From: Listeria riparia FSL S10-1204
Lineage (GTDB): Bacteria > Bacillota > Bacilli > Lactobacillales > Listeriaceae
Assembly (NCBI RefSeq): GCF_000525995.1
Contig: NZ_AODL01000007.1
Location: 347,252-379,251 of the forward strand
Reading direction: 5' to 3'
Length of the DNA: 32,000 nucleotides
Made by a program: the position numbers and the translations under genes. This document shows positions 17,412-32,000 of this stretch, piece by piece; position 1 is the stretch's first letter, and each line of letters opens with the position of its first letter. A model generated the notes under the pieces. That model was not told the origin of the DNA. It saw nothing but the letters and a program-made list of their open reading frames with translations, and made no database searches.

Positions 17412-17425
17412 TTTTAAAATTAGAA

Positions 17426-18035: not shown

Positions 18036-18091
18036 ACATGTAACACTCCCTTTATATTTTCCTATAGCTATTATAGTATATATAGTAGAAA

Positions 18092-18129: not shown

Positions 18130-18137
18130 CAATCCGT

Positions 18138-18911
18138 CTAATTCTCCCGCTTTGGTAATGTTGGGATGAACTTCGACGTTCTTTTAGCGTAAGCTTGGAA
18201 GTCAGCACGGTCTTTGTATTTCTTCTCAAGTAAAGGCACGCCTGAAACAAAGAGGAGAAGTAGCGTAATAATAAGCGGACCAATGAATCCCCAAAGGGTT
18301 GCGGCGCTTGTTATCGTAATTAGATAAATACCCCACCAGCTTAGCGCTTCGCCAAAATAATTGGGATGGCGCGTATATTGCCAAAGTCCAGTCGTCATCA
18401 GCTTTCCTTTGTTCTCTGGCTTCTGCTTGAAGCGACGCAATTGCTCGTCCCCACCAACTTCAAATATAAAACCAACAAGCCAAACTACAATCCCAACATA
18501 ATTCCACCATAAAAATTCCGTTGCCGCAGTTGTATTCACAAGTAAAATCGGCAAGCTAATAATGTACAACAAGACACCTTGCAAAACAAAAACATTCAAA
18601 TATGTTTTCAGCTTAACAGCTTTTGTACCCCAACGCTTGCGCATATTAACGTAGCGATAATCTTCGGGTTTACCGATATTCCGTTTTGCTAAGTGGAAAA
18701 ATAAGCGCATGCCCCATATAAATACGAAAATGGTAACAAGCAAACCTTGCGTCGTCATTTGTCCTCCCCAGAAATACGTGTAAATAGCGACGATTACGAA
18801 GCCCGGTCCCCACGCCAAGTCAACGATGGAGTTGTTTTTTAATTTCTGTGCCCAGATGAAAATGATTGTGAAATAAATCCATAATAATAATCCTGCGATT
18901 CCATATACCAT
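18138..18911 (-). CDS. DUF1295 / steroid-5-alpha-reductase-like membrane protein.
   Basis: This is a 257-aa polytopic protein. It has [12 protein letters not shown] near the N-terminus and the characteristic [14 protein letters not shown] motif. Confidence 0.8.
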
Positions 18912-18915
18912 TGTG

Positions 18916-20686
18916 TTAATTCTCCTCCTCTAATTGTATTGCGATTGCGACACAGCCACTTCCTGCATTCATTGCGATGATAGACGATATTCCCATTACA
19001 TAAGCCGGTGCTTTACCAACCAGATTTGTGAAAAGGGCGGTGTATTCTGCTGCCCGTTCTGGTGTGTTGGCATGGACAATCGCGTAATCCGCCACGCTTC
19101 CTTGCGCCATCATTTTTTTTCACGCGCTTCACAATTTTGTTAGTGCTTCCAGTTAAGCTAAACGCAATGTCACTCACTATTCCTGCACCAGTTTCCGATA
19201 AAGACACGACTGGTTTTAAATTTAGCGTATTGCCAATCGCGCCACCCTTCTCGCCGAGTCGCCCGGAACGGATCATCGCGTCCAAATTTGGAACACTAAC
19301 AAAAATTTTCGTTCGTGTAATGCTTTGTTTCACAAAATGTTGAACTTCGTCAAATGTTTTCCCTGCCGCGATTTGTTCTGCTGCCGCTTTTACGATCAGA
19401 CCTTGCGCACCAGAGTTTTGCATCGTGTCTATTACAGCAACATTCGCTTTTATTCCCGTCGCTGCACGCTTGATTGTTTCATACGTACCACTAAGCTTGC
19501 CCGCTACCGTCAAAACAAGGATATCATCATAATGATTCGCCAAAAACGACAGTTGATTCGCAACCGCTTTTTCGTTTGGCTGCGAAGAACTTGGATACGT
19601 CTTGCTATCACTAATGTTTGTAAGCAATGTTTCCGTCGTCATCGTCAGTTTATCTAAATAAACATTGTCATTCCACGAAATCGGCAACGGAATCATCTGA
19701 ATTTGGTATTTCTCGAGTAAACTTGGTGGTAAATCAGCTACGGAATCAGTCACTAGCGCAATGCGATGTTTTCGGTGATGTATAACATCGTATTGATTTT
19801 GCATATCATCGACTTTTTGCTGAATCATTGTCCCTTGATTGCTTAAAAACTCCGACACGCTCTGCGGCTCATTTGTATGAATATGCACACGAACTTTCGT
19901 TTCATTTCCTGCTACAATTAGCGAATCTCCAAATTGCTTCAAATGTTCCGAAACGGCGTCCTGTGAAATCCCTTCTCCGCGAACTAATACTTCCGTGCAA
20001 TAACGAAATGTCGGCGGCTCGTCCAATTCCTCCTGAACCGAAAAAGCTGGCAAACTTTCTACTTTTGGAACATACGCTTTATTCCCAAGTGCCAGCGTAA
20101 ACCCTTCTACAAATGTGAAGAATCCTTTAGCACCAGCATCCACAACGCCTTTATCTCGTAGAACCGGTAACATTTTCGGTGTATTTTCCAATGTTTTTTT
20201 GGCATAATCCAAGGCATTCATCAGTGCATCTTGGAAGGCGATTCCTTTATTTGCAGCCTCGGAAATAGCTTCGGACCAGACTTTGATGAGCGTAATCATC
20301 GTTCCTTCGACTGGGTTTTCCACCGCATTATATGCATAATTCGCACCACCCGAAACACTTTTTGAGAAATCGCGTAAAGACATTTGTTTATCATCCGATA
20401 GATGAAAATGCATACCGTTAATGTACTGCGCGAAAATAATCCCTGAGTTCCCACGAGCGCCGAATAGTGCTGCTTCTGAAATCGTGTACAGCGTTTCTTT
20501 TACCGTGTTACCTATTTTTGAATCTTCGACAATCGAGTGCATCGTCTGCGCCAAGTTGCTCCCCGTATCCCCGTCTGCCACAGGAAAAACATTGATGGCG
20601 TTCAAGCCATCTTTTGCATGAATAACAGCTCTTGCCCCGCCTAAAAAAGCATGGTACAGCCGTTTACTATCTAAAAAATCTGTCAT
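18916..20686 (-). CDS. DAK2 (DhaL-like) domain - DegV fatty-acid-binding domain fusion protein, with the frame broken at a T8/A8 run.
   Basis: ATG at 20686 ([12 protein letters not shown]) follows GGGGGA. The DAK2 motif is [11 protein letters not shown]. The DegV part is [27 protein letters not shown].... The track ORF 19013..20809 diverges into nonsense at 19113-19120. ORF 18916..19113 (..[24 protein letters not shown]..) is the natural DegV C-terminus, and removing one A joins them into 589 aa. Confidence 0.85.
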
Positions 20687-20706
20687 ATCGATTCCCCCTA
20701 CTATTC

Positions 20707-21108
20707 TTAAATATGCCAAATCTTTGCTAACCAAAATACAATACCCGATGTTGCTGCTGTAACAAATGCGCCCCATACCAAATCCAGTACCGTAATCAAC
20801 ACAGGCCAATCTTTCAATGTCGCTAAATTAGTCAAATCATATGTCGCATAGCAAAGCAATCCTAAAAAAGCGCCTGCAAAAATCGCAAATGAAAGGCTAT
20901 CTTTAGCTAGTGCAGGTTCTATTACAAAAAATACAATCCCGCAAACAAACAATACATAAAACAATAACGCTGCACCAAATCGTACATTTCCAGCCATCAA
21001 ATCCCCTAGGTAATTTCTATACAAATTTTTAGCAATCAGGCCTAGCCAAATGGCATCAATTAGCAGGAAAACAACGAAGGCGATTCCAGCTAGCTTAGCA
21101 AAGTACAT
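20707..21108 (-). CDS. Small integral membrane protein (DUF2177-like).
   Basis: The 133-aa protein has 4 TM helices and starts MYFAKLAGIAFVVFLLIDAIWLG. It is preceded by GGAAAGG and by an extended -10 element TGTTATAAT (reverse complement of 21152-21160). Confidence 0.65.
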   Translation of the reverse strand: MYFAKLAGIAFVVFLLIDAIWLGLIAKNLYRNYLGDLMAGNVRFGAALLFYVLFVCGIVFFVIEPALAKDSLSFAIFAGAFLGLLCYATYDLTNLATLKDWPVLITVLDLVWGAFVTAATSGIVFWLAKIWHI

Positions 21109-21373
21109 AGTACCACGAACCTTTCCTATTTTATTTTCTTATGCTTGGTTTATTATAACAATCTAAAGGGGTGTTTAGCTATTTTTTTGATTTATGCGCA
21201 AACAAAGATCGGAACAAAACTCAAGACAAAGCAAAACTACCCAGCCATTTACTTTGGGCAGGACGAAAAATCTTGCTTTACACAAATTGAGAGAGAGCGT
21301 TTTCATTTAGGAAATTTGAAAAGGAATAACCGTTCACTTTGTTCGTGCTTATATTTGGGCTATGTTTCAAACT

Positions 21374-21401
21374 AAAAAAGACCAGTCAGGGGAAACTGGT
21401 C
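21374..21401 (-). terminator. Rho-independent terminator.
   Basis: GACCAGT (21380-21386) pairs with ACTGGTC (21395-21401). The loop is 8 nt, and the minus strand continues TTTTTT. Confidence 0.7.
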
Positions 21402-21555
21402 TAAAAAAAGGGAGTTTGTTAAGGGACAACACAATTAGAAAAAGGGGGGGGAAACTAATTGCTGTCCTTGCTTTACATTCTCTATAATACATGGCTTCGA
21501 TGAGATTATGCAGGGGCATTCATTAGAATTTCATGATAGTTTACGATGTTTTCAC

Positions 21556-21858
21556 TCATGTAAAGCTGTATTTCACCGTTCCTTGTAGTGTTACATCCTG
21601 AATCACTAAGTTTCGATGCGATATATTGTTTATATCACCGATTGCTTTAATTATAATGGCGCTTTCTGTATTTAAGTACGATAACATGATTTTTCTGTCA
21701 GATGGTTGTATTTCAAAGACAATATCCTCTGACTCCCCAATAGCTAGTTTTTTGACCGCTACTGTGGTTTTTTGCCCCTCAATATATAAAAATAATTTCT
21801 GCGCCAGTACTTGTGTTGCATTATTTTTCACTGTGATTGTGAACTGCATCTCTGCCAC
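21556..21858 (-). CDS. Hypothetical 100-aa protein.
   Basis: The ORF overlaps the 3' end of the upstream peptidase gene by 31 nt. No motif is recognised, and the sequence has beta-strand-rich character. Confidence 0.5.
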   Translation of the reverse strand: MAEMQFTITVKNNATQVLAQKLFLYIEGQKTTVAVKKLAIGESEDIVFEIQPSDRKIMLSYLNTESAIIIKAIGDINNISHRNLVIQDVTLQGTVKYSFT

Positions 21859-22703
21859 TCCTTATCATTAAAATTACTCCCAAACGGACAAGGTTTCGCA
21901 TTTTCATAATGTCCAACCACCGTAGTTCTCACTAGAAAAGTGTCGTATTTTTGCGTGTAAGCCAGAACCATGTCAGGAACTTCCTCCGCCAAACCCAATT
22001 TCTCCATTCCTGTAAAAGTACCTAAAATAATCCCGTTCGCCTTCTCAAAATAGCCTATTTGATCAAGTTGGGCTAAAAAAGTCGCAATCTTATTCCGATT
22101 ACCACTCATTGCCTCTAACAAAATCACCTCGCCATCAGGTTCTGGCAAATACTGCGTACCAGCGAGTTTCAGCAGACAACGAATGTTCCCGCCAATCACT
22201 GTCCCCGTGATATCCTGATTTTCTGAAACTATTTCATAAGGAATCTCTGCATTTTCACCCCTTACAAAAGCATTTTCAAACTGGCGTAATTGCAATTCCG
22301 TCTCATTTCCTGCCAAATGCAACAACTGATAGTTCCAGCCAGCAACTCCCGTTTTCGCAAAAATCGCGTTCAAAACTACCGTCAAATCACTATACCCAAC
22401 AAACGGCTTACCCGCCTTCTCGATTACAGCAAAATCCAAATACGGCAAAATCTCATTTGCCAAATCGCCACCTGAAATATCAAAAATCGCCTTGATTTCT
22501 GGATTTTGATACATCTCCATCAAATCCAACGCACGCGCACTAGCCTCTCTATCTTCATCTTCAAAAATCGAAGTCGACCGTATCGTTTTAATCCCGAATC
22601 GCTCCAGTAATAATCGTTCCACACACACCACATCCGCCTCACGGTCTCGCGTCCGAGCGTCCGAACAACCCACCAAACCAATTACATCTCCATTATGTAA
22701 CAT
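21828..22703 (-). CDS. S66-family LD-carboxypeptidase (LdcA/MccF-like).
   Basis: The sequence begins GDVIGLVGCSD. The nucleophile motif is GYSDLTVVLNAI, and there is a C-terminal GH..E pattern. I chose the ATG at 22703 (MLHNGD) after GGAGGGG. Confidence 0.8.
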   Translation of the reverse strand: MLHNGDVIGLVGCSDARTRDREADVVCVERLLLERFGIKTIRSTSIFEDEDREASARALDLMEMYQNPEIKAIFDISGGDLANEILPYLDFAVIEKAGKPFVGYSDLTVVLNAIFAKTGVAGWNYQLLHLAGNETELQLRQFENAFVRGENAEIPYEIVSENQDITGTVIGGNIRCLLKLAGTQYLPEPDGEVILLEAMSGNRNKIATFLAQLDQIGYFEKANGIILGTFTGMEKLGLAEEVPDMVLAYTQKYDTFLVRTTVVGHYENAKPCPFGSNFNDKEWQRCSSQSQ

Positions 22704-22848
22704 ACAAATCCCCTCCAAATCATGATAAGTGTAGCACATTTCACCTAAAGAAAATACCGATTATCGTTCCGAGACTAAATTTTCAGGAAGGTTAGCGCGT
22801 CTTACACGAGCAGGCTGCAAAACTAATTCCATCGTTATTTATATAATC

Positions 22849-22889
22849 CAAAAAAGTACACGCTCAATTCGAAAACTTGGGCGTGTACT
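22849..22889 (-). terminator. Rho-independent terminator of topB.
   Basis: AGTACACGC (22855-22863) pairs with GCGTGTACT (22881-22889), followed on the minus strand by TTTTTT. Confidence 0.7.
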
Positions 22890-22895
22890 CTTATC

Positions 22896-25040
22896 CTATT
22901 TTAGTTTTAATTTGGCAAGCGCTTCTGCCATCGGATTGTTGAATGGCTCATCTTCTTGTTTATTCTGCTTCTTCATATAATTAGCCACTTCTTTTTTGGA
23001 AACGTTTTTGTTCTTTTCGTTTCCGCGTCTGGCGTTGAATGAGGAGAGCTTTTCGCGGTAGCCGCAGGAACATGTGAAAATTTGTTTGTCACCTTCGCCG
23101 CGTAATTCCATGCGTTTATGACAATTTGGACAGCGGGCGTTTGTTGTTCTGGCAACAGCTTCACGGTGTCCGCATTCGCGATCTTGACAGACGAGCATCG
23201 TGCCTTTCTTGCCTTTGACGCGTAGCATTAGTTTGCCGCAGTCTGGACATTTTGTAGATGTGATATTGTCGTGTTTGAATTTCTTGTCGTTTTGCTTGAT
23301 TTCATTCACGGCTTTTTTGGCGTAGTCGCGCATTTCGGTAGTGAATGTTGTTTTATCCAGCTTGCCATTGGCGATTTTGGATAGTTTTTGCTCCCAAATC
23401 GCGGTTAGCTCTGGGGATTTCAAGTCTGTTGGCACGAGATCAAGCAGTTGACGGCCCTTAGAGGTAATCATGATGTCTTTGCCTTGCTTCTCGATGGAAA
23501 AACTGTTGAAAAGTTTCTCGATGATGTCCGCGCGTGTTGCGACAGTTCCTAATCCGCCGGTTTCGCCGAGTGTTTTGGCAAGGTCTTTTTTGCCGCTTGT
23601 TAGGCTCGGATTTTCCATTGCGGAAAGTAGGGTTGCTTCGTTGAAACGGGCTGGTGGCTTTGTTTTGCCGGTGTGAATCTGGATGTCGCGGACTTTGATT
23701 TGCTCGCCTTTTTTGAGTTTGGTAACGGTGTCTGTGTCGTTGTCTTCATTATAGACGGCTTTCCAACCGAGTGATTTCACGACTTTGCCTTTAAGACCGA
23801 ATGTTTCGTCGCCGATTTTAGCTTGGACGGCTGTTTCTTCGTACGTGAATGGTGCGGAAAGTACGGCCAAAAAGCGCTTCACAACAAGGTCGTAAATTTT
23901 GCGTTCGCGGTCGTTTAGATCGGACAAGCTTGGCGTTTCTTCGGTCGGGATAATGGCGTGGTGATCGCTTACTTTGCTATTATCGACGAACGATTTGTTG
24001 GCTTTGATTGGCTTGGATGCTACGGCACGTGCGGGTTTCGCGTAAGGACCGACACCACAAGCTTCGACGCGTTCTTTTAACGTCGGCACAATGTCATCCG
24101 AAATAAAGCGCGAATCGGTACGCGGATATGTCAACACTTTATGGCGCTCATACAAAGTTTGCATGATATTCAATGTTTCTTTTGCGGAAAAATCATAGCG
24201 CTTATTGGCGTCACGTTGCAATTCCGTCAAATCATACAAGCCTGGTGCATGTGTTTTCTTTTCCTTCACGGCCACGTCTGTAATAATCGCATCTTTGCCA
24301 CGTAAGCTCCGCGCCGTTTTCTCAGCTTCCGCCTCATCAAATGTCTGCCCTTTACTCCACGAAAAACTGCCCTGTTCCGTCACAGCTGTTAACTGATAAA
24401 ATTCTTTCGGCTTAAATTGGCGAATTTCTTCTTCACGTTGCGCAATCATCGCAAGTGTCGGCGTTTGTACACGTCCACAAGAAAGTTGGGCATTATACTT
24501 TGTCGTTAAAGCACGGGTAGCGTTAATGCCGACCACCCAATCTGCCTCAGAGCGAGCTTCAGCGGAACGATATAAGTTTTCGTAAGCTTTGCCTGGTTGC
24601 AGACGATTGAAACCTTCACGAATCGCCTTGTCGGTTACAGACGATATCCAGAGGCGTTTTATTGGCTTTTTGACTTTGGCATATTCAATAATCCAGCGAG
24701 CCACAAGTTCCCCTTCACGCCCAGCGTCCGTTGCAATGACGATTTCACTGACATCTTTACGCGTCATCAAACTCTTCACCGTTTCGTATTGCTTCCGTGT
24801 TTGCTTAATTGGCACGAGTTTCATTTTTTGCGGAAGCATTGGCAAATCTTCCATGTTCCACGATTTATATTTAGTGTCATAATTCTCTGGATCGGCGAGC
24901 GTGATCAAGTGACCGAGCGCCCATGTAACAATATATTTCGAGCCTTCCAAGTACCCGTTCTTCCCTTGCTTACAACCAAGAACGCGCGCAATATCTTTCC
25001 CAACAGAAGGCTTCTCTGCTAAAACTACTATTTTTGTCAT
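22896..25040 (-). CDS. topB: DNA topoisomerase III.
   Basis: The TOPRIM N-terminus is MTKIVVLAEKPSVGKDIARVLG. The active-site tyrosine motif is LTYPRTDSRFIS. Two C-terminal Cys4 zinc ribbons are present (CPDCGK...CQDRECGH and CPNCHK...CSCGY). Length is 714 aa. Confidence 0.95.
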   Translation of the reverse strand: MTKIVVLAEKPSVGKDIARVLGCKQGKNGYLEGSKYIVTWALGHLITLADPENYDTKYKSWNMEDLPMLPQKMKLVPIKQTRKQYETVKSLMTRKDVSEIVIATDAGREGELVARWIIEYAKVKKPIKRLWISSVTDKAIREGFNRLQPGKAYENLYRSAEARSEADWVVGINATRALTTKYNAQLSCGRVQTPTLAMIAQREEEIRQFKPKEFYQLTAVTEQGSFSWSKGQTFDEAEAEKTARSLRGKDAIITDVAVKEKKTHAPGLYDLTELQRDANKRYDFSAKETLNIMQTLYERHKVLTYPRTDSRFISDDIVPTLKERVEACGVGPYAKPARAVASKPIKANKSFVDNSKVSDHHAIIPTEETPSLSDLNDRERKIYDLVVKRFLAVLSAPFTYEETAVQAKIGDETFGLKGKVVKSLGWKAVYNEDNDTDTVTKLKKGEQIKVRDIQIHTGKTKPPARFNEATLLSAMENPSLTSGKKDLAKTLGETGGLGTVATRADIIEKLFNSFSIEKQGKDIMITSKGRQLLDLVPTDLKSPELTAIWEQKLSKIANGKLDKTTFTTEMRDYAKKAVNEIKQNDKKFKHDNITSTKCPDCGKLMLRVKGKKGTMLVCQDRECGHREAVARTTNARCPNCHKRMELRGEGDKQIFTCSCGYREKLSSFNARRGNEKNKNVSKKEVANYMKKQNKQEDEPFNNPMAEALAKLKLK

Positions 25041-25174
25041 TTTAAAATTCCTTTCTGGATTTGAGATACGTTTATTTTAACATAGAAAAGGATTACATGC
25101 GCATTGAGATTCTAAATACGACGCCGTACAATATTCACACTCTTTCATTGTCCATTCTTTTAAAAATAAAAGAC

Positions 25175-25222
25175 TAGACATTTAAAATAAAATGCGTATA
25201 ATAAAAAACAGAAAACGTTTTC
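25175..25222 (+). promoter_or_regulatory. Putative sigmaA promoter of the PTS EIIC gene with a cre-like palindrome.
   Basis: TAGACA (25175-25180), a 16-nt spacer, then TATAAT (25197-25202). This is followed by the perfect 12-bp palindrome GAAAACGTTTTC (25211-25222). The palindrome matches the core of the CcpA cre consensus but lacks the outer T/A positions. Confidence 0.45.
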
Positions 25223-25250
25223 GCAATTTTAAAAATGGAGGATTTTTTTC

Positions 25251-26537
25251 ATGAATAAATTTATGGAGTTACTCGGAGAAAAATTAATGCCACTTGCAGC
25301 TAAGCTCGGTGAAAATCGCTATTTAGGTAGTCTACGTGATGCTTTTATGTTAGCGTTTCCACTAACAATGTTTGGCTCGATAGCCGTTGTTCTAATGAAT
25401 TTACCGTTTTGGAGCGATTCTACAAAGGAGACATTACAACTTTATTTAGGTAACGCGCAAAGTGCAACGATGAGTATTATGACAGTGTTTGTCGTTTTTG
25501 GAATTGGTTATGCGCTTTCTAATTACTATAAAGTCGAAGCTATATACGGCGGGGCTATCGCGCTTGCCAGTTTTTTGATTTTAACGCCATTCTTTTTCAA
25601 TAGTGAAAAGGGAGAACTGATTACTGGTGCGCTTTCGCTAGATCGTTTGGGCGCCAAAGGGATGTTCATTGGTATGATTACGGCTTTCGTTGCCGCTGAG
25701 TTATATCGCTTTTTTGTTGGTCGGAATTGGACAATTAAGATGCCTCCTGGAGTACCGCCAGCTGTTGCTAAGTCCTTTGCAGCCTTGATTCCCGCTATTT
25801 TAACTTTATCTATTTTTCTACTTATTAATATTTTCGTGCAGGTGCTGTTTAACACAAACTTGCATGATGTCATTTATACAACGATTCAAAAACCGCTCGT
25901 CGGACTAGGTTCTGGAATTGTGCCGACGTTGATTGCCCTGTTCTTCGTTCAAGTACTGTGGTTCTTCGGGCTTCACGGCCAAATTATTGTCAATTCCGTG
26001 ATGGACCCGATTTGGAATACATTGATGCTCGAAAATTTGGATGCTTACAAAGCTGGGCTACCGTTGCCGCATATTATTACTAAGCCATTTATGGAAGTTT
26101 TCACAGTTGGGCTTGGTGGTTCTGGAATGACACTTGCCGTTGTTATTACGCTCGCCTTCTTTATGAAGAGTAAGCAAAGTAAGGAGATTGGTCGTCTGGC
26201 GCTTGGGCCTGGACTTTTCAATGTGAATGAGCCGATTTTATTTGGGATGCCGATTGTTCTTAACGCGACGATTTTAATTCCGTGGATACTTGCACCGCTT
26301 GTTGTTACGCTATTTAATTATCTCGTTATGGCTGCGGGTATTGTCCCACCGCCGACTGGAGTTGCCGTTCCGTGGACTGTTCCGATTATTATTAACGGGA
26401 TTTTAGCAACGAATTCATGGCTTGGTGGCGCACTCCAAGTAGTCGATTTCTTCATTGTCTTCCTGATTTGGTATCCGTTCTTGAAATTGGTTGACCGCAG
26501 TAATCTTGCTCGTGAAAATGAAGCAATACAGGAATAA
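25251..26537 (+). CDS. PTS lactose/cellobiose-family EIIC permease.
   Basis: This 428-aa polytopic protein begins MNKFMELLGEKLMPLAAKLGENRYLGSLRDAF, the typical EIIC (cel) N-terminus. It also has LWFFGLHG and NEPILFGMPIV motifs, and GGAGG lies upstream of the ATG. Confidence 0.9.
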   Translation: MNKFMELLGEKLMPLAAKLGENRYLGSLRDAFMLAFPLTMFGSIAVVLMNLPFWSDSTKETLQLYLGNAQSATMSIMTVFVVFGIGYALSNYYKVEAIYGGAIALASFLILTPFFFNSEKGELITGALSLDRLGAKGMFIGMITAFVAAELYRFFVGRNWTIKMPPGVPPAVAKSFAALIPAILTLSIFLLINIFVQVLFNTNLHDVIYTTIQKPLVGLGSGIVPTLIALFFVQVLWFFGLHGQIIVNSVMDPIWNTLMLENLDAYKAGLPLPHIITKPFMEVFTVGLGGSGMTLAVVITLAFFMKSKQSKEIGRLALGPGLFNVNEPILFGMPIVLNATILIPWILAPLVVTLFNYLVMAAGIVPPPTGVAVPWTVPIIINGILATNSWLGGALQVVDFFIVFLIWYPFLKLVDRSNLARENEAIQE

Positions 26538-26561
26538 CTCGCCTTTCTGCCCATCATGCGC

Positions 26562-26589
26562 TATAATTTGTCTATGTTTGACTAGACAA
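26562..26589 (+). promoter_or_regulatory. -10 box plus an inverted repeat, a candidate HutC/GntR operator.
   Basis: TATAAT is at 26562-26567. It is followed by TTGTCTA (26568-26574), an 8-nt spacer and TAGACAA (26583-26589). The 9-mer GACTAGACA (26580-26588) recurs at 25172-25180, over the -35 of the EIIC promoter. Confidence 0.4.
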
Positions 26590-26609
26590 TTAGAAAGAGA
26601 GGCGCCAAG

Positions 26610-27324
26610 ATGACGAAATACGAAGAAATCTCTAAAGATATTCGGGACAAAATTCATTCCGGCATCTATCCTCCAGAATCATTACTGCCAGACCAGTTAA
26701 CCCTTTGCAAAACATACGATTGCAGCCGCATGACGATAAAAAAAGCATTTGATATTTTGGCGATGGAAGGCTTGGTTTACAGACAACGTGGTGCAGGAAC
26801 TTTTGTAATGAAAAATGCCTTAGCGAACAAGCAGGACGCGAGCTTGCGCGACTACGAAGGCTTGACCAAAATGATGGGAAAAAAACATATTTCAAGCCAA
26901 GTTATCGAATTTACGATTGGCTTCCCTAATGCAAAAGTACAGGAACAACTGCTAATAAAAAAAAGACGAGCCAGTATATTCTATTGTGCGGTTGCGACTT
27001 CTTGATAAGAAACCTTATGTTTTGGAGCACACGTTCATGCCGCTAAATGTTGTCACTGGTTTGAATGAAACGATTTTGCACGGTTCGATTTATGATTATT
27101 TAAAACAAGAGCTTGGACTAATTATGAGCGGTGCCTTCCGAAAAATTAATGCGGACAAGCCGTCTGACTACGACAAACTGTATTTGAATTGCGGTGAACA
27201 CGACCCGGTTCTTGAGGTGGAGCAAGTTGTGTATTCAAAAGATGGACGCCCGATTGAATATTCTCGTTCGCGACACCGTTATGATACGCGAAGTTTTATT
27301 ATGTTAGATCATCGTGAACCGTGA
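26610..27324 (+). CDS. GntR/HutC-family transcriptional regulator (wHTH plus UTRA domain), with the frame broken at an A8 run.
   Basis: The N-terminus is MTKYEEISKDIRDKIHSGIYPPESLLPDQLTLCKTYDCSRMTIKKAFDILAMEGLVYRQRGAGTFV. With A7 instead of A8 at 26957-26964 the frame reads ..LIKKDEPVYSIVRLRLLDKKPYVLEHTFMP.., joining track ORFs 26610..27005 and 26986..27324 into 237 aa. Confidence 0.85.
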
Positions 27325-27388
27325 GAGGAAGTTGGGGTGTCTTAAAACTAATAAAGACACGCGCCCGTGATAAAAGGCTTGTTGACCT

Positions 27389-27438
27389 AAAAAATACGTA
27401 TCAAAAATCTAAAATCAGATTTTTGATACGTATTTTTT
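27389..27438. terminator. Perfect 22-bp-stem hairpin, a bidirectional Rho-independent terminator.
   Basis: AAAAAATACGTATCAAAAATCT (27389-27410) pairs with AGATTTTTGATACGTATTTTTT (27417-27438) across a 6-nt loop. A and T tracts lie on both sides. Confidence 0.8.
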
Positions 27439-27559
27439 GTAACCAGACATAATTTCCAACTTCCTTTCCTTTTGTGTTTACTTGAGAACAATATACCATT
27501 TCATTTTACTGTCTACTACCGATAGTATACATCCAAAGCGTACATCTCTATAGATAGGT

Positions 27560-27588
27560 TTGACCAATATAGAAAACTATTGCATAAT
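27560..27588 (+). promoter_or_regulatory. Putative sigmaA promoter of the helicase operon.
   Basis: TTGACC (27560-27565), a 17-nt spacer, then CATAAT (27583-27588). A second TATAAT lies at 27593-27598. The 8-bp palindrome TCTATAGA (27547-27554) sits just upstream, and the SD GGGAGGA is at 27605-27611. Confidence 0.55.
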
Positions 27589-27618
27589 ATAGGTATAATA
27601 TAACAGGGAGGATTTGTT

Positions 27619-29508
27619 TTGATGAATATAAATTATTTTAGAGATATAGAAACTAATATTTTGGAAAATGAGAGCTTACGAGAGCCCCAAAAACAAGCAT
27701 ATTATGAAGTATATGAACATTTCATTCGAAAAGAAAGTGATAAGCATGCTATTGTAGTGTTGCCAACAGGCGTTGGAAAAACTGGGTTAATGTCAATCTT
27801 GCCGTATAATATTTCTTCAGGCAGAGTGTTGATAATTGCGCCTCAATTAACAGTTAAAGATACGATAGTGAAGCAGTTAGATAGTAGTTCTTCTCAAAAT
27901 TTCTTAACGAAGTTAGGGATAATAACGAACCCTCATAATTTGCCTCAAATGATTGAGTACGATGGTGAGAATACCCCTCAATCGATTTTAGATATGGCAA
28001 ATATAGTGATTACAAATATACAAAAATTACAGAGTAGGAATAATTCTTCACTGCTTAGGAGGTTGCCAAAGGATTACTTTGATATGATAATTATTGATGA
28101 AGGTCATCACTCAGCAGCGAAGACTTGGTTAGAGAATTTAGATCATTTTTCTAAAGCAAAGGTTGTGAAAATAACAGCAACTCCATATAGATCAGACAAT
28201 AAACCACTGAGTGGTGAATTAATATACAAATATAAGCTTAGTCAAGCAATGGCAAAAGGTTATGTTAAATCATTAGAGAAATTTGATTATATCCCCCAAG
28301 AATTGAGGCTAACAATTGATAAAAATGAAGATAAGACATATTCGGTTCAAGAAATATTAGACTTAAATCTTAAAGACAATGATTGGATAACCCGGACAGT
28401 TGCATATTCAGATGATTGCAAGAGGGACGTCGTACTTGAAAGTATAGCGTTATTAAACGAAAAAAGAAGAGGTACCACTGTGCCACACAAAATTATAGCA
28501 GTAGCTAGCAACATAGATGAAGCTATTAAGATAGAACAGATGTATAAGGATCAGGGTGTTGAAGCAGTCATTATACATAGTGATTTAGGTGAATTTGAGA
28601 AGAGGCGCGCATTTTCAGATATAGAGAATAACAGAGTCAAGGTAGTTGTAAACATAAATATGATGGGGGAAGGCTATGATCATAAATATTTATCTGTGGC
28701 AGCGATATTTAGAGTATTTAAGAATCTCTCACCCTATGAGCAGTTTATTGGCAGGATATTGCGGGTAATACCAGATAACGAGGTAGTTAAAGCGTCAGAT
28801 AATATAGGAAGCGTAGTAGTCCACAAAAACCTAGGATTAGACGAACTTTGGGAATATTATAAGAGACAACTTCAAGAAAGTGATATAATAAAAGAGCTAA
28901 AGGAATTTGATGATGAGATAATTCCAGAAGATCCGAAAAAGATTGGAGAGTTAAGTGAGGCTAGGGTTTTAGATGTGGGAGGTGCTTTTGACAATGGTCA
29001 GGGCGAGTTAAGGAAGAGCTCATACTTAACTACTGAGCTAATAAAAGAAAATCAACGCGAGGAAAAAGAACGGAATGAAAAGATTAAGTCTTTACAAGAG
29101 CTGCTAAACATTTCAAAGAACGAAGCAATTCAAGTTATTGATCAGGCTGATTCGAATAATTCAGTTCACAAGCGTCCAGATTTGTTTTATAATGAGAAAA
29201 GGAAAAATATCGATGTGGATATAAGGGAAAGATATGTTCCAGAAATATTGGTAGCGGCAAATTTGGAGTTAGATGGTAGTGAGCTAAAAGATAATCCCAT
29301 ATTCAAGGCTAACAATTATAGGTGGATTCCCCAACGTATTAAGGTAAACGGAGGAATGTTAGCCACATATTTTAATCATTATTTGAAAACACAAATTGGT
29401 GCGGCAAAAAAAGATTGGACTTTGGAAGATTACGATCAAGCATTTGGCTTACTAGACCAACAGGCGGAATATGTTAAGACATTTCTAGCGTGTGAAGGAG
29501 AGGATTAA
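27619..29508 (+). CDS. Stand-alone SF2 DExH helicase (ResIII / type III restriction Res-like N-terminus plus Helicase_C) with an uncharacterised C-terminal region of about 200 aa.
   Basis: Motif I is VLPTGVGKTG, Ia is LIIAPQLTV and II is IIIDEGHH. Motif III is ITATPYR, followed by YKYKLSQAMAKGYVK. Motif V-like is MMGEGYD and motif VI is QFIGRILR. The start is TTG at 27619 or ATG at 27622. No methyltransferase or recognisable nuclease gene is adjacent. Confidence 0.9.
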   Translation: MMNINYFRDIETNILENESLREPQKQAYYEVYEHFIRKESDKHAIVVLPTGVGKTGLMSILPYNISSGRVLIIAPQLTVKDTIVKQLDSSSSQNFLTKLGIITNPHNLPQMIEYDGENTPQSILDMANIVITNIQKLQSRNNSSLLRRLPKDYFDMIIIDEGHHSAAKTWLENLDHFSKAKVVKITATPYRSDNKPLSGELIYKYKLSQAMAKGYVKSLEKFDYIPQELRLTIDKNEDKTYSVQEILDLNLKDNDWITRTVAYSDDCKRDVVLESIALLNEKRRGTTVPHKIIAVASNIDEAIKIEQMYKDQGVEAVIIHSDLGEFEKRRAFSDIENNRVKVVVNINMMGEGYDHKYLSVAAIFRVFKNLSPYEQFIGRILRVIPDNEVVKASDNIGSVVVHKNLGLDELWEYYKRQLQESDIIKELKEFDDEIIPEDPKKIGELSEARVLDVGGAFDNGQGELRKSSYLTTELIKENQREEKERNEKIKSLQELLNISKNEAIQVIDQADSNNSVHKRPDLFYNEKRKNIDVDIRERYVPEILVAANLELDGSELKDNPIFKANNYRWIPQRIKVNGGMLATYFNHYLKTQIGAAKKDWTLEDYDQAFGLLDQQAEYVKTFLACEGED

Positions 29509-29509
29509 G

Positions 29510-29771
29510 ATGGATAAAAATGTAAAAAAAAATATACGACTTAATGTATAGTCCAATATTAACCCCATATAATTTATTGGAAAATATAAGATTGGACAAT
29601 TATGAATATGTAAATTACAGAAAAGAAAAGGAATTAGTGGTTTGTGAGATGAAAGTAAAAGTAGGTAAAGACACAGTTATTTTTGCATATTACTTTAATG
29701 AGGATAACCACTTGCAATTTGCTGACGCGAGTAATTTAAATGATGATAGCGTTATGGTTATTTTTGATTAG
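29510..29771 (+). CDS. Hypothetical 86-aa protein translationally coupled to the helicase, with the frame broken at an A9 run.
   Basis: ATG at 29510 lies 1 nt after the helicase stop, and GAAGGAGAGGA is upstream. With A8 instead of A9 at 29524-29532 it reads MDKNVKKIYDLMYSPILTPYN.., continuing into track ORF 29544..29771. No motif is recognised. Confidence 0.55.
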
Positions 29772-29896
29772 AGAGAGAAGTATTACAGATGCTGTTAATG
29801 AATTTGATAGCAATATGATTCGTTGCTTTTCGGTTGTATAAATTTTTTTAACCAATCAGCGGGGCGGGGGGCGAAACCCTCACAACCCATCATAGA

Positions 29897-29930
29897 GCCT
29901 CAACAGATTTCGTGTCTGTTGGGGCTTTTA
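29897..29930 (+). terminator. Rho-independent terminator of the helicase operon.
   Basis: GCCTCAACAGA (29897-29907) pairs with TCTGTTGGGGC (29915-29925), an 11-bp stem with one G-U pair and a 7-nt loop, followed by TTTT. Confidence 0.75.
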
Positions 29931-30068
29931 AATTTACCGGATAAATGACTTCATATCCGAACATCCACTCACCTAAAGGGATATTTTTCATTTTAATCAA
30001 ATACAAAAAATTTATGGGAATTGTAAAGAGAGCTTCTGTGTTTTACATATTGAAAAATACCTTTATTG

Positions 30069-30203
30069 TTAGGATTGCTGGCTAATCATGCCACTATTCT
30101 TATTATATTCAATAATGCCTGAAATTTTTTCATCAGGACCGTATTTATAAACGACTTTTTCCTCATTTTCGTACTCTTTTGTCATGATAATGAAAACAGC
30201 CAT
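30069..30203 (-). CDS. 44-aa ORF, possibly a truncated remnant of an immunity-type protein.
   Basis: It is not in the ORF track because it is under 60 aa. ATG at 30203 follows AGGAG at 6-nt spacing, directly after the stop of the 112-aa gene. The sequence is MAVFIIMTKEYENEEKVVYKYGPDEKISGIIEYNKNSGMISQQS*. Confidence 0.35.
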   Translation of the reverse strand: MAVFIIMTKEYENEEKVVYKYGPDEKISGIIEYNKNSGMISQQS

Positions 30204-30218
30204 TGTGTCACTCCTAAT

Positions 30219-30557
30219 TTACAAATCCCCTGACTCTGCCAGCTCATCAATTAGCTCTTTTTCAAAGGAGTCTAAACGTGTATATTCTTTGAGGGAAGCC
30301 AAATCAATTCCCAATTTTTTTAAAGTAGCTAAGGCAAAATCTCCGACTGTATAAAATCCTAACATTTTATTTTCCAATGTTTGCTCTCTTCTTCCAGAAA
30401 TACTAATAAGTTTTTGAATTATAATTGGATCAGTAATTTTTTTATCAATAATCTCATGCATCGTGTTGTAAAGTACGATGGCATTCCCTGTGCTAAGATA
30501 GTTCTCTAAATCACCTATCTCGTATTGACCATTATTAAGTTTTTCAATTATTGTCAT
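30219..30557 (-). CDS. Hypothetical 112-aa acidic helical protein (immunity-protein-like character).
   Basis: ATG at 30557 follows GAGGAAAC, an SD that overlaps the stop of the 41-aa ORF. The protein is predicted helical with an acidic C-terminus (ELIDELAESGDL). No catalytic motif is present. Confidence 0.6.
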   Translation of the reverse strand: MTIIEKLNNGQYEIGDLENYLSTGNAIVLYNTMHEIIDKKITDPIIIQKLISISGRREQTLENKMLGFYTVGDFALATLKKLGIDLASLKEYTRLDSFEKELIDELAESGDL

Positions 30558-30567
30558 ATTAGTTTCC

Positions 30568-30693
30568 TCACTTCAAATGATTTGTGATGTGTTGCCTTTC
30601 GACCAGATAGTTTTCGAATAGTTGATTCGCAATATCTTTTCTCCCTATACTATCTGCCCAATGTATTTCTTGCATATACACATCGAATTCCAT
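30568..30693 (-). CDS. 41-aa ORF.
   Basis: It is not in the ORF track. ATG at 30693 follows GAGG at 6-nt spacing. The sequence is MEFDVYMQEIHWADSIGRKDIANQLFENYLVERQHITNHLK*. Its stop overlaps the SD of the next gene. Confidence 0.35.
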   Translation of the reverse strand: MEFDVYMQEIHWADSIGRKDIANQLFENYLVERQHITNHLK

Positions 30694-30791
30694 TTTAAGC
30701 CTCGCTTTTGGTTATCTTTTTTAATTCGTCAATAATCATTGTGAATGCCACTACCATAAATAAAATAAATAGAATATAAATTGCTTTTCAT

Positions 30792-31433
30792 TCATGCAAT
30801 AAATTGAATATATTCTCCATCAGAAAACGGTTCTGTAATTTCTCCTTGATCTAGCAATTCTTTTTCTCTAGATTGCAGTAAAGATAAAAGGTAGGTGTTG
30901 GTAAAAGCGTAGAAAAGAGCGTCCATTCTATCTAAAATTTGGGACTCATCTAAAATCTGCATATTTGAGTTAACAAAACAAATTTTCCAGTCCGTTTCAT
31001 TTATATTATTTAGTAGAATACTCATTGGCTTTAAATTTATTACTCCGTTAGAGAAAAATTTCTCGATTTTTAGTCTTTCAATAGCTGCTATTAAAAGTGG
31101 TAAGTCAAATAACTCTCCACCAATGTCTAAATCATTTTGTTCCTGTATAAGCTTTCGGACATATTTTTTTGAATAAAACGATGAAAGACGATTTATATAA
31201 AAATATATTGCCGCAGAATCTTCTGAGGTGAATGTAGCTATTTGTTGGTGCACTGGTGTATTTTGATGGTCCACAACGACCAAATTAAGTATCCAATTAT
31301 CCCCTACTTTACAAATCTCATGATAGTTGCTATATGGAGGGAGTATTTCTTTTATTATTTCACCGTTGTAGCGTGTTTCTTTCCCTTCATCCGTTAGTAA
31401 TCTTGCTACTTGTTCCAAATTCATGCTTATCAT
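30792..31433 (-). CDS. Hypothetical 213-aa cytoplasmic protein (candidate immunity protein).
   Basis: This is a long ORF in very AT-rich DNA. The more likely start is the second ATG (31424, MNLEQVARLL), with AAGGA 8 nt upstream. A candidate promoter is TTGAGA-17-TATATT, inside the upstream remnant ORF. No motif is recognised. Confidence 0.65.
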   Translation of the reverse strand: MISMNLEQVARLLTDEGKETRYNGEIIKEILPPYSNYHEICKVGDNWILNLVVVDHQNTPVHQQIATFTSEDSAAIYFYINRLSSFYSKKYVRKLIQEQNDLDIGGELFDLPLLIAAIERLKIEKFFSNGVINLKPMSILLNNINETDWKICFVNSNMQILDESQILDRMDALFYAFTNTYLLSLLQSREKELLDQGEITEPFSDGEYIQFIA

Positions 31434-31440
31434 CCTTTTT

Positions 31441-31617
31441 CTATTTTATTTGACGAATATAATTATTGGCCAGCAAATTCTCAACTGTAGCATCAATAAG
31501 TTGCCCCTTTTTATTGAGTATTTTAGTCTCTCCAGAGAAATATTGAATACCTCCACCGACTCGATCAAACCAAGGAAAATAATTGCATTGTCTTCTAAAA
31601 AACGGGACATATAACAT
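31441..31617 (-). pseudogene. Possible 3' remnant of a toxin-type gene (58 codons, no SD).
   Basis: The ORF ..YFPWFDRVGGGIQYFSGETKILNKKGQLIDATVENLLANNYIRQIK* ends 7 nt before the 213-aa gene, so that gene's SD lies in its 3' end. It begins immediately after the terminator-like hairpin of the ABC-2 gene and has no ribosome-binding site. The interpretation is weak. Confidence 0.25.
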
Positions 31618-31671
31618 AAACAAAACCACAAAAACCCCACCTACGCCAAAACGCAAATGGGGCTTTTCATC

Positions 31672-32000
31672 CTAACTTCTCAACCCGCGGCCTCTCTCAA
31701 TCAAATACCAACAAGCAATATAAAGCACGAGGCTAAATAAAACAAGAATCGCGATGGAAACCATCACGGGAATGTCGGTCTTGCCAAGAAAACCGTATCG
31801 GAATCCGGAAACCATGTAAACAATCGGGTTTACTTTGGAAACGGCTTGCCAAAATGGTGGTAACATCGAAATGGCGTAAAATACTCCGCCAAGATACGTT
31901 AGTGGCTGCAAAACGAAGGTCGGAATAATCGACACGTCGTCAAAGGAACGCGCGAAAAGACCGTTTAGCAAACCTGCTAACGAGAACAGAATGGCTGTCA
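31672..32000 (-). CDS. ABC-2-type transporter permease, C-terminal part (5' end beyond window).
   Basis: The TM-rich sequence ..IIPTFVLQPLTYLGGVFYAISMLPPFWQAVSKVNPIVYMVSGFRYGFLG.. is typical of ABC-2 permeases. The frame is open to the window edge. Confidence 0.8.
   Translation of the reverse strand, partial: TAILFSLAGLLNGLFARSFDDVSIIPTFVLQPLTYLGGVFYAISMLPPFWQAVSKVNPIVYMVSGFRYGFLGKTDIPVMVSIAILVLFSLVLYIACWYLIERGRGLRS

What the first reader, a model, noticed from the sequence alone, without database searches (positions are those of the whole stretch)
27439..29930. Stand-alone ResIII-type DExH helicase plus a coupled 86-aa ORF in an AT-rich island: candidate novel defence module
A 629-aa SF2 helicase carries all core motifs: GVGKT, DEGHH, TATP and QxxGRxxR. 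It also has the post-motif-III YxYxLxQAxxxGYV signature of type III restriction Res / COG1061 helicases. It lacks any adjacent methyltransferase, and I can recognise no nuclease domain. Its last 200 or so residues are uncharacterised and partly coiled-coil (EEKERNEKIKSLQELL).

An 86-aa ORF starts 1 nt after its stop, using an SD inside the helicase 3' end. The pair has its own promoter (TTGACC-17-CATAAT) and terminator.

The DNA is about 28-35% GC in sampled lines against about 50% in the flanking genes. It lies between a regulator gene and a transporter gene, without mobility genes.

Helicase plus small-partner cassettes in variable islands are a recurring architecture of anti-phage systems. 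I cannot assign this pair to a named system from sequence alone.
Basis: partly seen in the sequence, partly recalled or inferred. Interest (0 to 1): 0.7.

Follow-up and report, generated by a model that had tools for sequence, protein, structure and literature searches.

The report
Mobile helicase plus small-partner defence candidate
A DNA-motor protein gene and a tiny partner gene sit on a 4.3-kb insert that a sister strain lacks; the same pair travels across bacterial phyla in prophages, plasmids and defence islands, so it is a good untested candidate for a new anti-virus system.

Summary
The helicase is real: 628 aa at 27622-29508, with all SF2 motifs and a Pfam ResIII match (E 7.6e-26). 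The "86-aa ORF" is not. The true partner gene is 109 aa (29510-29841), broken in this window by two +1 insertions. These are probably homopolymer assembly errors like four others in the window.

The pair lies on a 4.34-kb, 33% GC insert (27325-31664). A 99%-identical strain lacks the insert precisely.

Helicase and partner are the only conserved genes across 74 genome loci and 50 viral contigs, and their divergence is correlated (r = 0.88). The pair also occurs in Leptospira, Pseudomonas and Pasteurella.

Contexts are accessory:
- prophage lysogeny modules, between ImmA/repressor or AimR and the integrase
- a region beside a Tn7-like TnsD gene, and plasmids
- positions next to SIR2-HerA, type III R-M, DRT2 and Kiwa

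PADLOC v2, NCBIfam and the literature I searched name no such system. The helicase C-terminal domain is all-alpha, with no nuclease fold. The partner has a confident alpha/beta model with no Pfam, PDB or BFVD match and no invariant acidic residue.

Verdict: a well-supported but untested candidate defence cassette without a nuclease. The mechanism is inferred, not shown.

The parts
27325..31664 (.). Accessory insert of 4,340 bp and 33% GC. A conspecific strain has a ~60-bp intergenic terminator here instead.
   Evidence: L142 is 98.9% identical over window 17247-27324 and 98.5% over 31665-32000. In L142 the GntR gene is followed directly by the ABC-2 gene. No flanking direct repeats were found.
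27389..27438 (.). Perfect 22-nt inverted repeat flanked by A/T runs. It is probably the GntR-gene terminator, a diverged copy of the hairpin at the empty site.
   Evidence: Inverted repeat I2; sequence comparison with the L142 intergenic region.
27560..27588 (+). Promoter-like site TTGACC-17-CATAAT. An overlapping TAGAAA-18-TATAAT site lies at 27570-27599.
   Evidence: This is a consensus match only, and the AT-rich region gives many such matches.
27622..29508 (+). SF2 helicase/translocase gene, 628 aa, preceded by the RBS AGGGAGGA at 27605-27612.
   Evidence: The product is 100% identical to the L. riparia FSL S10-1204 protein WP_036100252.1. A full-length family with 50-60% identity to this protein is spread through Bacillota.
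27673..28191 (+). RecA1 / ResIII domain with motif I GVGKT (27769-27783), motif II DEGHH (28096-28110) and motif III TATP (28174-28185).
   Evidence: Pfam ResIII residues 19-191, E 7.6e-26. The motif residues are invariant in 16 homologues.
28483..28767 (+). RecA2 / Helicase_C domain with motif V MMGEGYD (28660-28680) and motif VI QFIGRILR (28741-28764).
   Evidence: Pfam Helicase_C, E 3.2e-11.
28912..29016 (+). Variable linker predicted to be disordered.
   Evidence: AF2 model m54508e8708f4, residues 40-74, pLDDT below 50. The alignment is poorly conserved here.
29017..29505 (+). All-alpha C-terminal region: a long helix, a small helical unit, then a compact domain (29212-29505, pLDDT above 90). 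It contains the invariant KRPD (29170-29181), W568 and W599. No nuclease fold is present.
   Evidence: no PDB fold match, best E 1.7; no consistent Pfam hit in 52 homologues.
29510..29841 (+). Partner gene, 109 aa when frame-corrected. It starts 1 nt after the helicase stop, with AGGAG inside the helicase 3' end. In this window it is broken by +1 insertions in the A9 run at 29524-29532 and at ~29768.
   Evidence: The family has 282 clusters of 64-194 aa and is never fused to another domain. It matches phrog_12848 at E 4.7e-16. The AF2 model of the 46-55%-identical homologue P0122 has pLDDT 86 and the topology alpha2-beta5-alpha.
29894..29928 (+). Intrinsic terminator hairpin of the two-gene operon, followed by TTTTAAATTT.
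   Evidence: dG -22.7 kcal/mol, z -6.2. The simple scan did not list it.
30219..31433 (-). Other cargo of the same insert: convergent ORFs of 112 aa (30219-30557) and 213 aa (30792-31433), plus smaller ORFs. They are not conserved with the pair.
   Evidence: No Pfam, PADLOC, NCBIfam or PHROG hit. They are absent from the conserved neighbour clusters. The only plasmid match is a Paenibacillus hypothetical protein.

Best explanation
The locus is a self-contained two-gene accessory operon carried on a horizontally acquired 4.3-kb insert. It encodes an ATP-driven SF2 DNA translocase/helicase of the ResIII/COG1061 branch, with a private all-alpha C-terminal domain. It also encodes a translationally coupled, acidic ~109-aa alpha/beta partner.

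I read it as an anti-phage or anti-mobile-element immunity cassette of the kind prophages express from their lysogeny module (superinfection immunity). It also rides on plasmids, beside Tn7-like transposition genes and in defence islands.

**Shown**
- The genes and motifs are present.
- The pairing is conserved across phyla and the two genes co-diverge.
- The insert is present in some strains and absent in others.
- The genomic contexts are accessory.
- No recognisable nuclease or other effector domain is present.

**Inferred mechanism**
- The helicase and partner form a complex, probably through the helicase C-terminal domain.
- The faster-evolving partner acts as the regulatory or specificity subunit. 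It either holds the motor inactive or senses a phage product.
- Once triggered, ATP-driven translocation on DNA blocks phage replication, either by clearing or stalling replication/packaging machinery or by becoming toxic to the infected cell.

The window copy has an intact helicase. Its partner gene is frameshifted twice, most likely by homopolymer sequencing errors.
For: **Conserved pair**
- The helicase (73 loci) and the partner (69 loci) are the only conserved gene families in 74 genome loci.
- In IMG/VR, 43 of 50 viral contigs have the partner directly downstream.
- Gaps between the genes range from -25 to +71 nt, and 10 loci have a 4-nt overlap.
- Pairwise identities of helicase and partner correlate at r = 0.88 over 57 loci. 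Mean identity is 29% for the partner and 45% for the helicase.
- The same pair occurs on Leptospira and Priestia plasmids, on Pseudomonas plasmids beside TnsD, and in a Pasteurella prophage-like region just after a cI-like regulator.

**Mobility**
- A strain 99% identical in the flanks lacks 27325-31664.
- The helicase region differs by only ~0.25% between the window and L. booriae, while the flanks differ by 4-5%.

**Prophage context**
- Neighbours are XRE/CI-type regulators, ImmA/IrrE metalloprotease (16 of 125 neighbour ORFs), serine and tyrosine integrases, and endolysin.
- The order Peptidase_M78 - cargo - helicase - partner - serine recombinase - contig end was checked with Pfam.
- A B. 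cereus group locus has AimR - pair - integrase.
- 36 of 50 viral contigs have the pair within 6.5 kb of a contig end.

**Defence neighbours**
- SIR2_2 plus DUF87/HerA plus a C5 methylase in L. monocytogenes.
- Type III REase with N6/N4 methylase in 3 loci, Drt2 in 3, KwaA with KwaB in 2, DrmD in 2, and an AAA ATPase plus HNH pair.

**Active motor**
- Motifs I, II, III and VI are invariant.
Against: - No phenotype has been tested, so defence is inferred from context alone.
- Only about 10-20% of chromosomal loci have a recognised defence gene among the two nearest neighbours on each side. This was a rough census, not a calibrated defence score.
- Neither protein has a recognisable effector such as a nuclease, NADase or membrane domain. 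The partner has no invariant acidic residue. The killing or blocking step is therefore pure inference.
- The helicase core is about as close to the repair helicase RadD and to XPB as to restriction R subunits.
- I could not run current DefenseFinder models. The pair may already be catalogued in a source I could not search.
- If the two frameshifts in the window are real, this copy lacks a working partner.
Confidence: 0.58

Rival explanations
1. Toxin-antitoxin or addiction-type module. The helicase is toxic when free and the small acidic partner neutralises it. The cassette mainly stabilises the mobile elements that carry it, with or without abortive infection as a by-product.
For: The architecture is tightly coupled: a large enzyme plus a small acidic partner (median pI 5.0), often with overlapping stop and start codons. 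It is carried on plasmids and prophages and sits next to RelE/ParE and Xre-type antitoxin genes. PsyrTA is a precedent for a helicase-type toxin (own knowledge). PADLOC PsyrT hits only weakly, at E 0.0014.
Against: The partner is encoded downstream, whereas most type II antitoxins are upstream. There is no significant similarity to PsyrT or PsyrA or to any antitoxin family. If the window's partner frameshifts were real, an intact toxic helicase would be hard to keep. That argument is weak, because the frameshifts are probably errors.
Confidence: 0.13
2. DNA repair, recombination or replication-restart helicase (RadD/XPB-like) with an accessory subunit. Mobile elements carry it to help their own replication, integration or survival of DNA damage, not for immunity.
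For: The best solved and curated relatives of the core include RadD (E 4.8e-14 by profile; NCBIfam 63 bits) and archaeal XPB. The helicase matches phrog_16 'DNA helicase' at E 4.9e-50.
Against: All scores are far below the family cut-offs (63 against 720 bits for RadD). In prophages the pair lies in the lysogeny/integrase region, not among replication genes. It is dispensable within a species. Phage replication helicases in INPHARED are only ~25% identical and lack the C-terminal domain.
Confidence: 0.12
3. Counter-defence or inter-element competition factor. A prophage- or plasmid-borne helicase protects the element from host immunity, or interferes with satellites or rival plasmids, rather than protecting the cell from phages.
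For: Many copies lie on phage, plasmid or other mobile-element DNA. The acidic small partner could in principle mimic nucleic acid.
Against: Many copies sit in chromosomal islands without phage genes, beside bona fide defence systems. The position in the lysogeny module implies expression in the lysogen, which is typical of immunity genes rather than early anti-defence genes (inference from established phage biology).
Confidence: 0.08
4. Decayed remnant of a type III or type I restriction-modification system: a solitary Res/HsdR-like gene with no current function.
For: The Pfam ResIII match and the UniRef name 'Type III restriction protein res subunit'. NCBIfam EcoAI R subunit scores 64 bits.
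Against: The full-length architecture of about 585-670 aa is conserved across three phyla with invariant ATPase motifs and a conserved private C-terminal domain. No Mod or HsdM/S gene is conserved next to it. The only conserved neighbour is the partner. No PD-(D/E)xK domain is present.
Confidence: 0.03

Closest known systems
Type III (and type I) restriction R subunits, Pfam ResIII / COG1061
   Same: The SF2 core is the same, with DExH motif II, the post-motif-III YxYxLxQA...GYV segment and QxxGRxxR. It is probably a dsDNA translocase. It occurs in accessory DNA, sometimes next to complete type III systems.
   Different: There is no C-terminal PD-(D/E)xK nuclease and no conserved Mod, HsdM or HsdS gene. 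The protein is about 630 aa rather than about 900-1000. It has a private all-alpha C-terminal domain and an obligate ~109-aa partner.
Hachiman (HamA nuclease + HamB helicase)
   Same: It is a two-gene helicase-containing cassette of defence islands and mobile elements. In Hachiman the helicase restrains and then releases its partner on sensing abnormal DNA (PMC12278908). That is a plausible working analogy.
   Different: No PADLOC HamA or HamB hit was obtained. The partner here is downstream, about 109 aa against about 250-300 aa (own knowledge), and lacks the DUF1837 nuclease and any invariant acidic residue. The helicase clade is also different.
Lambda rexAB-type prophage immunity cargo and other lysogeny-module defence genes
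   Same: The position matches: beside or downstream of the repressor, ImmA or AimR and next to the integrase, so it is presumably expressed in lysogens. In the Pasteurella region the pair directly follows a cI-like regulator.
   Different: There is no sequence or fold relationship. RexAB has no helicase.
RadD / archaeal XPB(-Bax1) repair helicases
   Same: These are the closest solved structures to the helicase core by profile search. XPB also works with a dedicated partner protein.
   Different: Scores are far below family thresholds. The C-terminal domains differ. The gene is accessory and mobile rather than core. Bax1 is a nuclease of several hundred residues (own knowledge), and the partner here is not.
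SauUSI-type type IV restriction enzymes and PbeA (the best PADLOC hits)
   Same: The helicase core shows weak similarity (PbeA E 5.7e-14; mREase_IV E 4.2e-13; PDB 7clg).
   Different: The matches cover only part of those much longer models (672-945 positions). No Pfam domain besides the helicase core is found in this protein. The PLD nuclease and target-recognition domains of SauUSI (own knowledge) therefore have no counterpart here.

Membership tests
Type III restriction-modification Res subunit | SF2 helicase motifs I-VI of the ResIII type | tested here: met
   Pfam ResIII E 7.6e-26 and Helicase_C E 3.2e-11. Motifs were located and are invariant in homologues.
Type III restriction-modification Res subunit | C-terminal PD-(D/E)xK endonuclease domain | tested here: not met
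   The C-terminal 237 aa are predicted all-alpha with no strands. There is no PDB fold match, no consistent Pfam hit in 52 homologues and no PDB sequence match.
Type III restriction-modification Res subunit | Adjacent Mod methyltransferase, co-conserved | tested here: not met
   There is none in the insert. Across 74 loci only the helicase and the ~109-aa partner are conserved. N6_N4_Mtase was seen in only 3 of 113 second neighbours, belonging to separate complete type III systems.
Hachiman (HamAB) | HamB-type helicase with HamA (DUF1837) nuclease partner | tested here: not met
   No HamA or HamB model is among the PADLOC hits for either protein. The partner has no Pfam family.
RadD DNA repair helicase | Score above the NCBIfam equivalog cut-off; core chromosomal gene | tested here: not met
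   NF053632 scores 63.1 bits against a cut-off of 720. The gene is absent from a conspecific strain.
PsyrTA (RecQ-like toxin plus antitoxin) | PsyrT-type helicase and PsyrA partner | tested here: not met
   PADLOC PsyrT E 0.0014 over 87 residues only, and no PsyrA hit.
Prophage replication module helicase | Located among phage replication genes (primase, loader, SSB, replication initiator) | tested here: not met
   The most frequent PHROG families among 125 neighbour ORFs are repressors, ImmA-type protease, integrases and endolysin; no replication family is among the 25 listed. This was confirmed by Pfam in four loci and in the B. cereus group prophage. Phage helicases in INPHARED are 28% identical or less and cover only the core.
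Anti-phage defence system (generic, operational definition) | Accessory, horizontally mobile cassette that recurs next to known defence systems or in prophage/MGE cargo hotspots | tested here: met
   The census is rough, not a calibrated enrichment statistic.
Anti-phage defence system (generic, operational definition) | Confers protection against phage on expression | not testable with these tools
   This requires cloning and phage challenge.
Any system in current DefenseFinder or later PADLOC releases | Match to a system model newer than PADLOC-DB v2.0.0 (2023) | not tested
   Only PADLOC v2.0.0 was available. Full-text literature searches found no description.

The most novel reading that the evidence does not exclude
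The pair is a previously undescribed, cross-phylum immune system that works without any nuclease, NADase or membrane effector. An SF2 DNA motor is gated by an orphan-fold ~109-aa subunit that recognises a phage product or DNA structure. Immunity comes from translocase activity itself, for example by stripping or stalling phage replication or packaging machinery. Temperate phages deploy it from the lysogeny module as superinfection immunity.
Probability: 0.3. Interest if true: 0.75.

Novelty: new variant of a known kind. Interest (0 to 1): 0.6.

Why it matters
Helicase-containing systems are a large share of bacterial immunity. The understood ones pair the motor with a nuclease or another obvious effector. 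This cassette has only a motor and a tiny partner that has no Pfam family and no PDB or BFVD fold match. Yet it is kept intact from Listeria to Leptospira and Pseudomonas, and it sits in the places where prophages and transposons keep their immunity cargo.

If it defends, it would give a compact (about 2.2 kb) system for asking how a translocase alone, or a very small effector, can stop a phage. It would also add a prophage-borne immunity function for Listeria, Enterococcus, Lactococcus, Bacillus and Clostridium strains of food and clinical interest.

If it does not defend, the strict pairing still defines a new helicase-cofactor family worth biochemical study.

Tried and rejected
**Hypotheses rejected**
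- **Type III Res remnant:** rejected. There is no nuclease domain and no conserved Mod gene, while the whole protein is conserved.
- **Nuclease in the C-terminal domain:** I considered that KRPD...DxDIRE might be a PD-(D/E)xK site. The AF2 model has no beta strand there.
- **Named defence systems:** Hachiman, PsyrTA, PbeA, SauUSI and Dpd give only weak core-only PADLOC hits.
- **Prophage replication module:** rejected by the neighbour census.
- **Partner as an enzyme or membrane protein:** it has no invariant acidic or histidine residue. No Pfam family is hit by more than 2 of 56 members. It is never fused to another domain in 282 clusters.
- **att-like direct repeats at the insert ends:** none found.

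**Searches that found nothing**
- Foldseek of the partner against the PDB and BFVD gave nothing significant (best E 0.13 and 0.024, TM below 0.45).
- A profile search of the partner against PDB sequences gave nothing.
- tblastn of the 75-aa fragment against INPHARED phages found no match.
- Accession and keyword literature searches found nothing on this pair.
- Plasmid searches for the other island ORFs were uninformative.

I modelled homologue P0122, which is 46-55% identical, instead.
- Exact look-ups of the L. riparia proteins P0121 and P0299 found no contig.
Full report
**What is in the window**

The + strand ORF 27619/27622-29508 encodes a 628-aa protein. It is 100% identical to the DEAD/DEAH helicase of Listeria riparia FSL S10-1204 and almost identical to an L. 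booriae protein. The window is therefore almost certainly that L. riparia draft genome.

Pfam matches ResIII (E 7.6e-26) and Helicase_C (E 3.2e-11), and nothing matches the last ~235 residues. NCBIfam scores are far below every family cut-off: EcoAI R subunit 64 bits against 550, and RadD 63 against 720. PADLOC v2 gives only weak core matches, the best being PbeA at 49.6 bits. By profile search the closest solved chains are RadD, a type I HsdR fragment, 7clg and archaeal XPB, all at 55 bits or less.

**The small ORF**

As given, the ATG at 29510 lies 1 nt after the helicase stop, with AGGAG 10 nt upstream. It opens only 13 codons. The listed ORF is 75 aa in another frame, at 29544-29771.

Two L. 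booriae contigs carry the same locus with a 109-aa gene that starts 1 nt after the stop. Alignment shows two +1 insertions in the window. One creates an A9 run at 29524-29532, and the other is a T at ~29768. Removing both restores the 109-aa protein over 29510-29841. "86 aa" is what results from correcting the first shift and missing the second.

Against a 99%-identical strain, every indel in window 17247-27324 is a lengthened homopolymer: T2 to T3, T7 to T8, G6 to G8 and A7 to A8. The last of these splits the GntR gene. A UDP-GlcNAc 2-epimerase gene is also split. The partner frameshifts are therefore probably assembly errors. The same premature stop is annotated in the L. riparia record (P0121), which is most likely the same assembly.

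**The insert**

GC is 34% for the pair and 33% for 27340-31660, against 43% for the left flank and 40% for the rest of the window.

A Logan contig (L142) encodes an identical PTS EIIC protein. It is 98.9% identical over window 17247-27324 and 98.5% over 31665-32000. In L142 the GntR gene is followed after ~60 bp by the ABC-2 transporter gene. Window 27325-31664 (4,340 bp) is therefore a presence/absence insert within the species. Its first ~110 bp look like a diverged copy of the empty-site terminator. I found no flanking direct repeats and no mobility gene.

Between the window and L. booriae, the helicase region differs by about 0.25% while the flanks differ by 4-5%. That fits recent exchange of the insert between the two lineages.

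The insert also carries convergent ORFs of 112 and 213 aa plus smaller ones. They have no database match and are not conserved with the pair.

**Operon signals**

TTGACC-17-CATAAT lies at 27560-27588. Such matches are frequent in this AT-rich DNA. A strong hairpin followed by a T-rich tail lies at 29894-29928 (dG -22.7 kcal/mol, z -6.2).

**Is the pair conserved?**

Yes. The helicase belongs to a full-length family of about 585-670 aa with invariant ATPase motifs and a conserved C-terminal region containing KRPD, W568 and W599. Members 50-60% identical to the window protein are spread through Listeria, Lactococcus, Enterococcus, Bacillus and Clostridium.

- In 74 genome loci, clustering all flanking ORFs left only two conserved families: the helicase (73 loci) and a ~105-148-aa protein directly downstream (69 loci).
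- Gaps between the two genes range from -25 to +71 nt, and 10 loci have a 4-nt overlap. Pairwise identities of the two proteins correlate at r = 0.88 over 57 loci. The partner evolves faster, at 29% against 45% mean identity, and is acidic with a median pI of 5.0.
- The pair also occurs on Priestia and Leptospira plasmids and on Pseudomonas plasmids (617-aa helicase plus 142-aa partner). It occurs too in a Pasteurella prophage-like region. All these partners match the partner HMM at E 1e-16 to 1e-38.
- An exhaustive HMM search found 282 partner clusters of 64-194 aa, none fused to another domain.

**Where does it live?**

*Prophages.* Fifty IMG/VR viral contigs carry the helicase. Of these, 43 have the partner directly downstream and 36 have the pair within 6.5 kb of a contig end. 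Among the 125 nearest neighbour ORFs, the most frequent PHROG families are XRE/CI-type regulators, ImmA/IrrE metalloprotease (16), serine integrase (13), tyrosine integrases and endolysin. Pfam confirmed the order Peptidase_M78 - other cargo - helicase - partner - large serine recombinase - contig end. A B. cereus group prophage has AimR - pair - tyrosine integrase. In the Pasteurella region the pair follows a cI-like regulator. This is the lysogeny-module cargo position, not the replication module.

*Other mobile DNA.* In Pseudomonas the pair lies beside a Tn7-like TnsD gene. In L. lactis it lies at the edge of an element next to core genes.

*Chromosomal islands.* In L. monocytogenes the pair is followed directly by SIR2_2 plus DUF87/HerA and a C5 methylase. 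The nearest-neighbour census of the genome loci found type III REase (3) with N6/N4 methylase (3), Drt2 (3), KwaA (2) with KwaB (2) and DrmD (2). It also found HSDR_N, HNH and DUF4145 proteins, together with resolvases, integrases and IS21 IstB. On the Priestia plasmid the upstream genes are an AAA ATPase and an HNH endonuclease.

This census is rough. It covers two neighbours per side, and the tool reports only the 25 most frequent families. Still, complete known systems adjacent in roughly one locus in six is far more than I would expect for random genes (own judgement, not calibrated).

**What the proteins look like**

*Helicase C-terminal region.* The AF2 model of residues 393-629 has mean pLDDT 75 and above 90 for the last ~100 residues. 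It is entirely helical, with a disordered linker at about aa 432-466. It has no PDB fold match (best E 1.7), no consistent Pfam hit in 52 homologues and no PDB sequence match. There is no nuclease fold.

The model is confident (pLDDT 86) with the topology alpha2-beta5-alpha. It has no significant match in the PDB or BFVD or in PDB sequences, and no Pfam family. It does match phrog_12848, of unknown function. Its invariant residues are P, L, N, Y, Y, L and R, with no catalytic-looking acidic residue.

**Interpretation**

The pair is a self-contained, horizontally mobile two-gene cassette. Its distribution matches that of immunity cargo. I consider an anti-phage or anti-mobile-element role the best explanation (about 0.58).

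The mechanism is inferred. The ATP-driven translocase is the only enzyme present. The partner is most plausibly a regulatory or specificity subunit bound to the private C-terminal domain, by loose analogy with HamB restraining HamA in Hachiman (PMC12278908). Here, however, no nuclease is present. The output would have to be translocase action itself, a toxic activity of the released partner, or recruitment of a host factor.

The rivals are listed with their tests: an addiction/toxin-antitoxin module, a repair or replication accessory helicase, a counter-defence factor and a restriction remnant.

**Novelty and limits**

I rate it a new variant of a known kind: a helicase-based accessory immunity cassette. 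It is notable for lacking any recognisable effector and for a partner with no Pfam family and no PDB or BFVD fold match.

Noticed in passing
window 17573, 19113, 21444-21445, 26957 (also 27403, 29525, 29768, 29843): Every indel relative to a 99%-identical strain lengthens a homopolymer (T2 to T3, T7 to T8, G6 to G8, A7 to A8). The GntR/UTRA regulator (26610-27324) is split into two ORFs as a result. This is a typical homopolymer sequencing-error signature, so apparent pseudogenes in this window should not be trusted.
   Followed up: yes
window 4484-5571 (- strand): A UDP-N-acetylglucosamine 2-epimerase gene is split into two overlapping ORFs covering Pfam profile positions 3-99 and 200-342. 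It is probably another frameshift artefact.
   Followed up: partly
window 27500-29500 versus L075 (L. booriae): The helicase region is ~99.75% identical between the window and L. booriae, while the flanking core genes are only 95-96% identical. The insert sits at the same site in both. This suggests recent exchange of the insert between lineages.
   Followed up: partly
window 29930-31664 (- strand ORFs 30219-30557 and 30792-31433; smaller ORFs of 44, 56 and 74 aa are called in L075): The right half of the insert carries a convergent set of small ORFs with no Pfam, PADLOC, NCBIfam or PHROG match. The 112-aa ORF has only a 40%-identical hypothetical protein on Paenibacillus polymyxa plasmids. 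Their function is unknown, and they are unrelated to the helicase pair elsewhere.
   Followed up: partly
L079/L080 (L. monocytogenes) 11384-16039: Directly downstream of the L. monocytogenes copy of the pair lie SIR2_2 (473 aa) plus DUF87/HerA (615 aa), a C5 DNA methylase and a 75-aa ORF. This compact defence island is inserted after a PTS operon.
   Followed up: partly
L138 (E. faecalis TX0645) 10402-13589: Next to the pair, on the opposite strand, lie an 847-aa DinG-like helicase (DEAD, ResIII, Helicase_C_2) and a 192-aa DUF6037 protein. A Tn916-like region (DUF961, FtsK) follows. This may be another uncharacterised helicase-plus-partner cassette.
   Followed up: no
L093 6699-7832; L089 6231-7865: In prophages, other cargo sits between the ImmA-type protease gene and the helicase pair. 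One is a 377-aa protein with an HSDR_N nuclease-like domain. Another is a 544-aa DUF4236 plus RNase_T (DEDDh exonuclease) protein. Both may be further lysogeny-module immunity genes.
   Followed up: no
L078 (Leptospira interrogans plasmid pLiSL41) 4716-5910: A caspase-family protein and a 151-aa hypothetical protein lie immediately upstream of the pair on Leptospira plasmids.
   Followed up: no
L137 (B. cereus group) 11117-11818: A pPIWI_RE_X-domain gene lies just outside the prophage integrase that flanks the pair.
   Followed up: no
P0069 (metagenomic homologue, 636 aa): One helicase homologue carries N-terminal HTH_3/HTH_19 Pfam hits. This suggests a fusion, or a mis-called fusion, with an upstream XRE-type regulator.
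   Followed up: no
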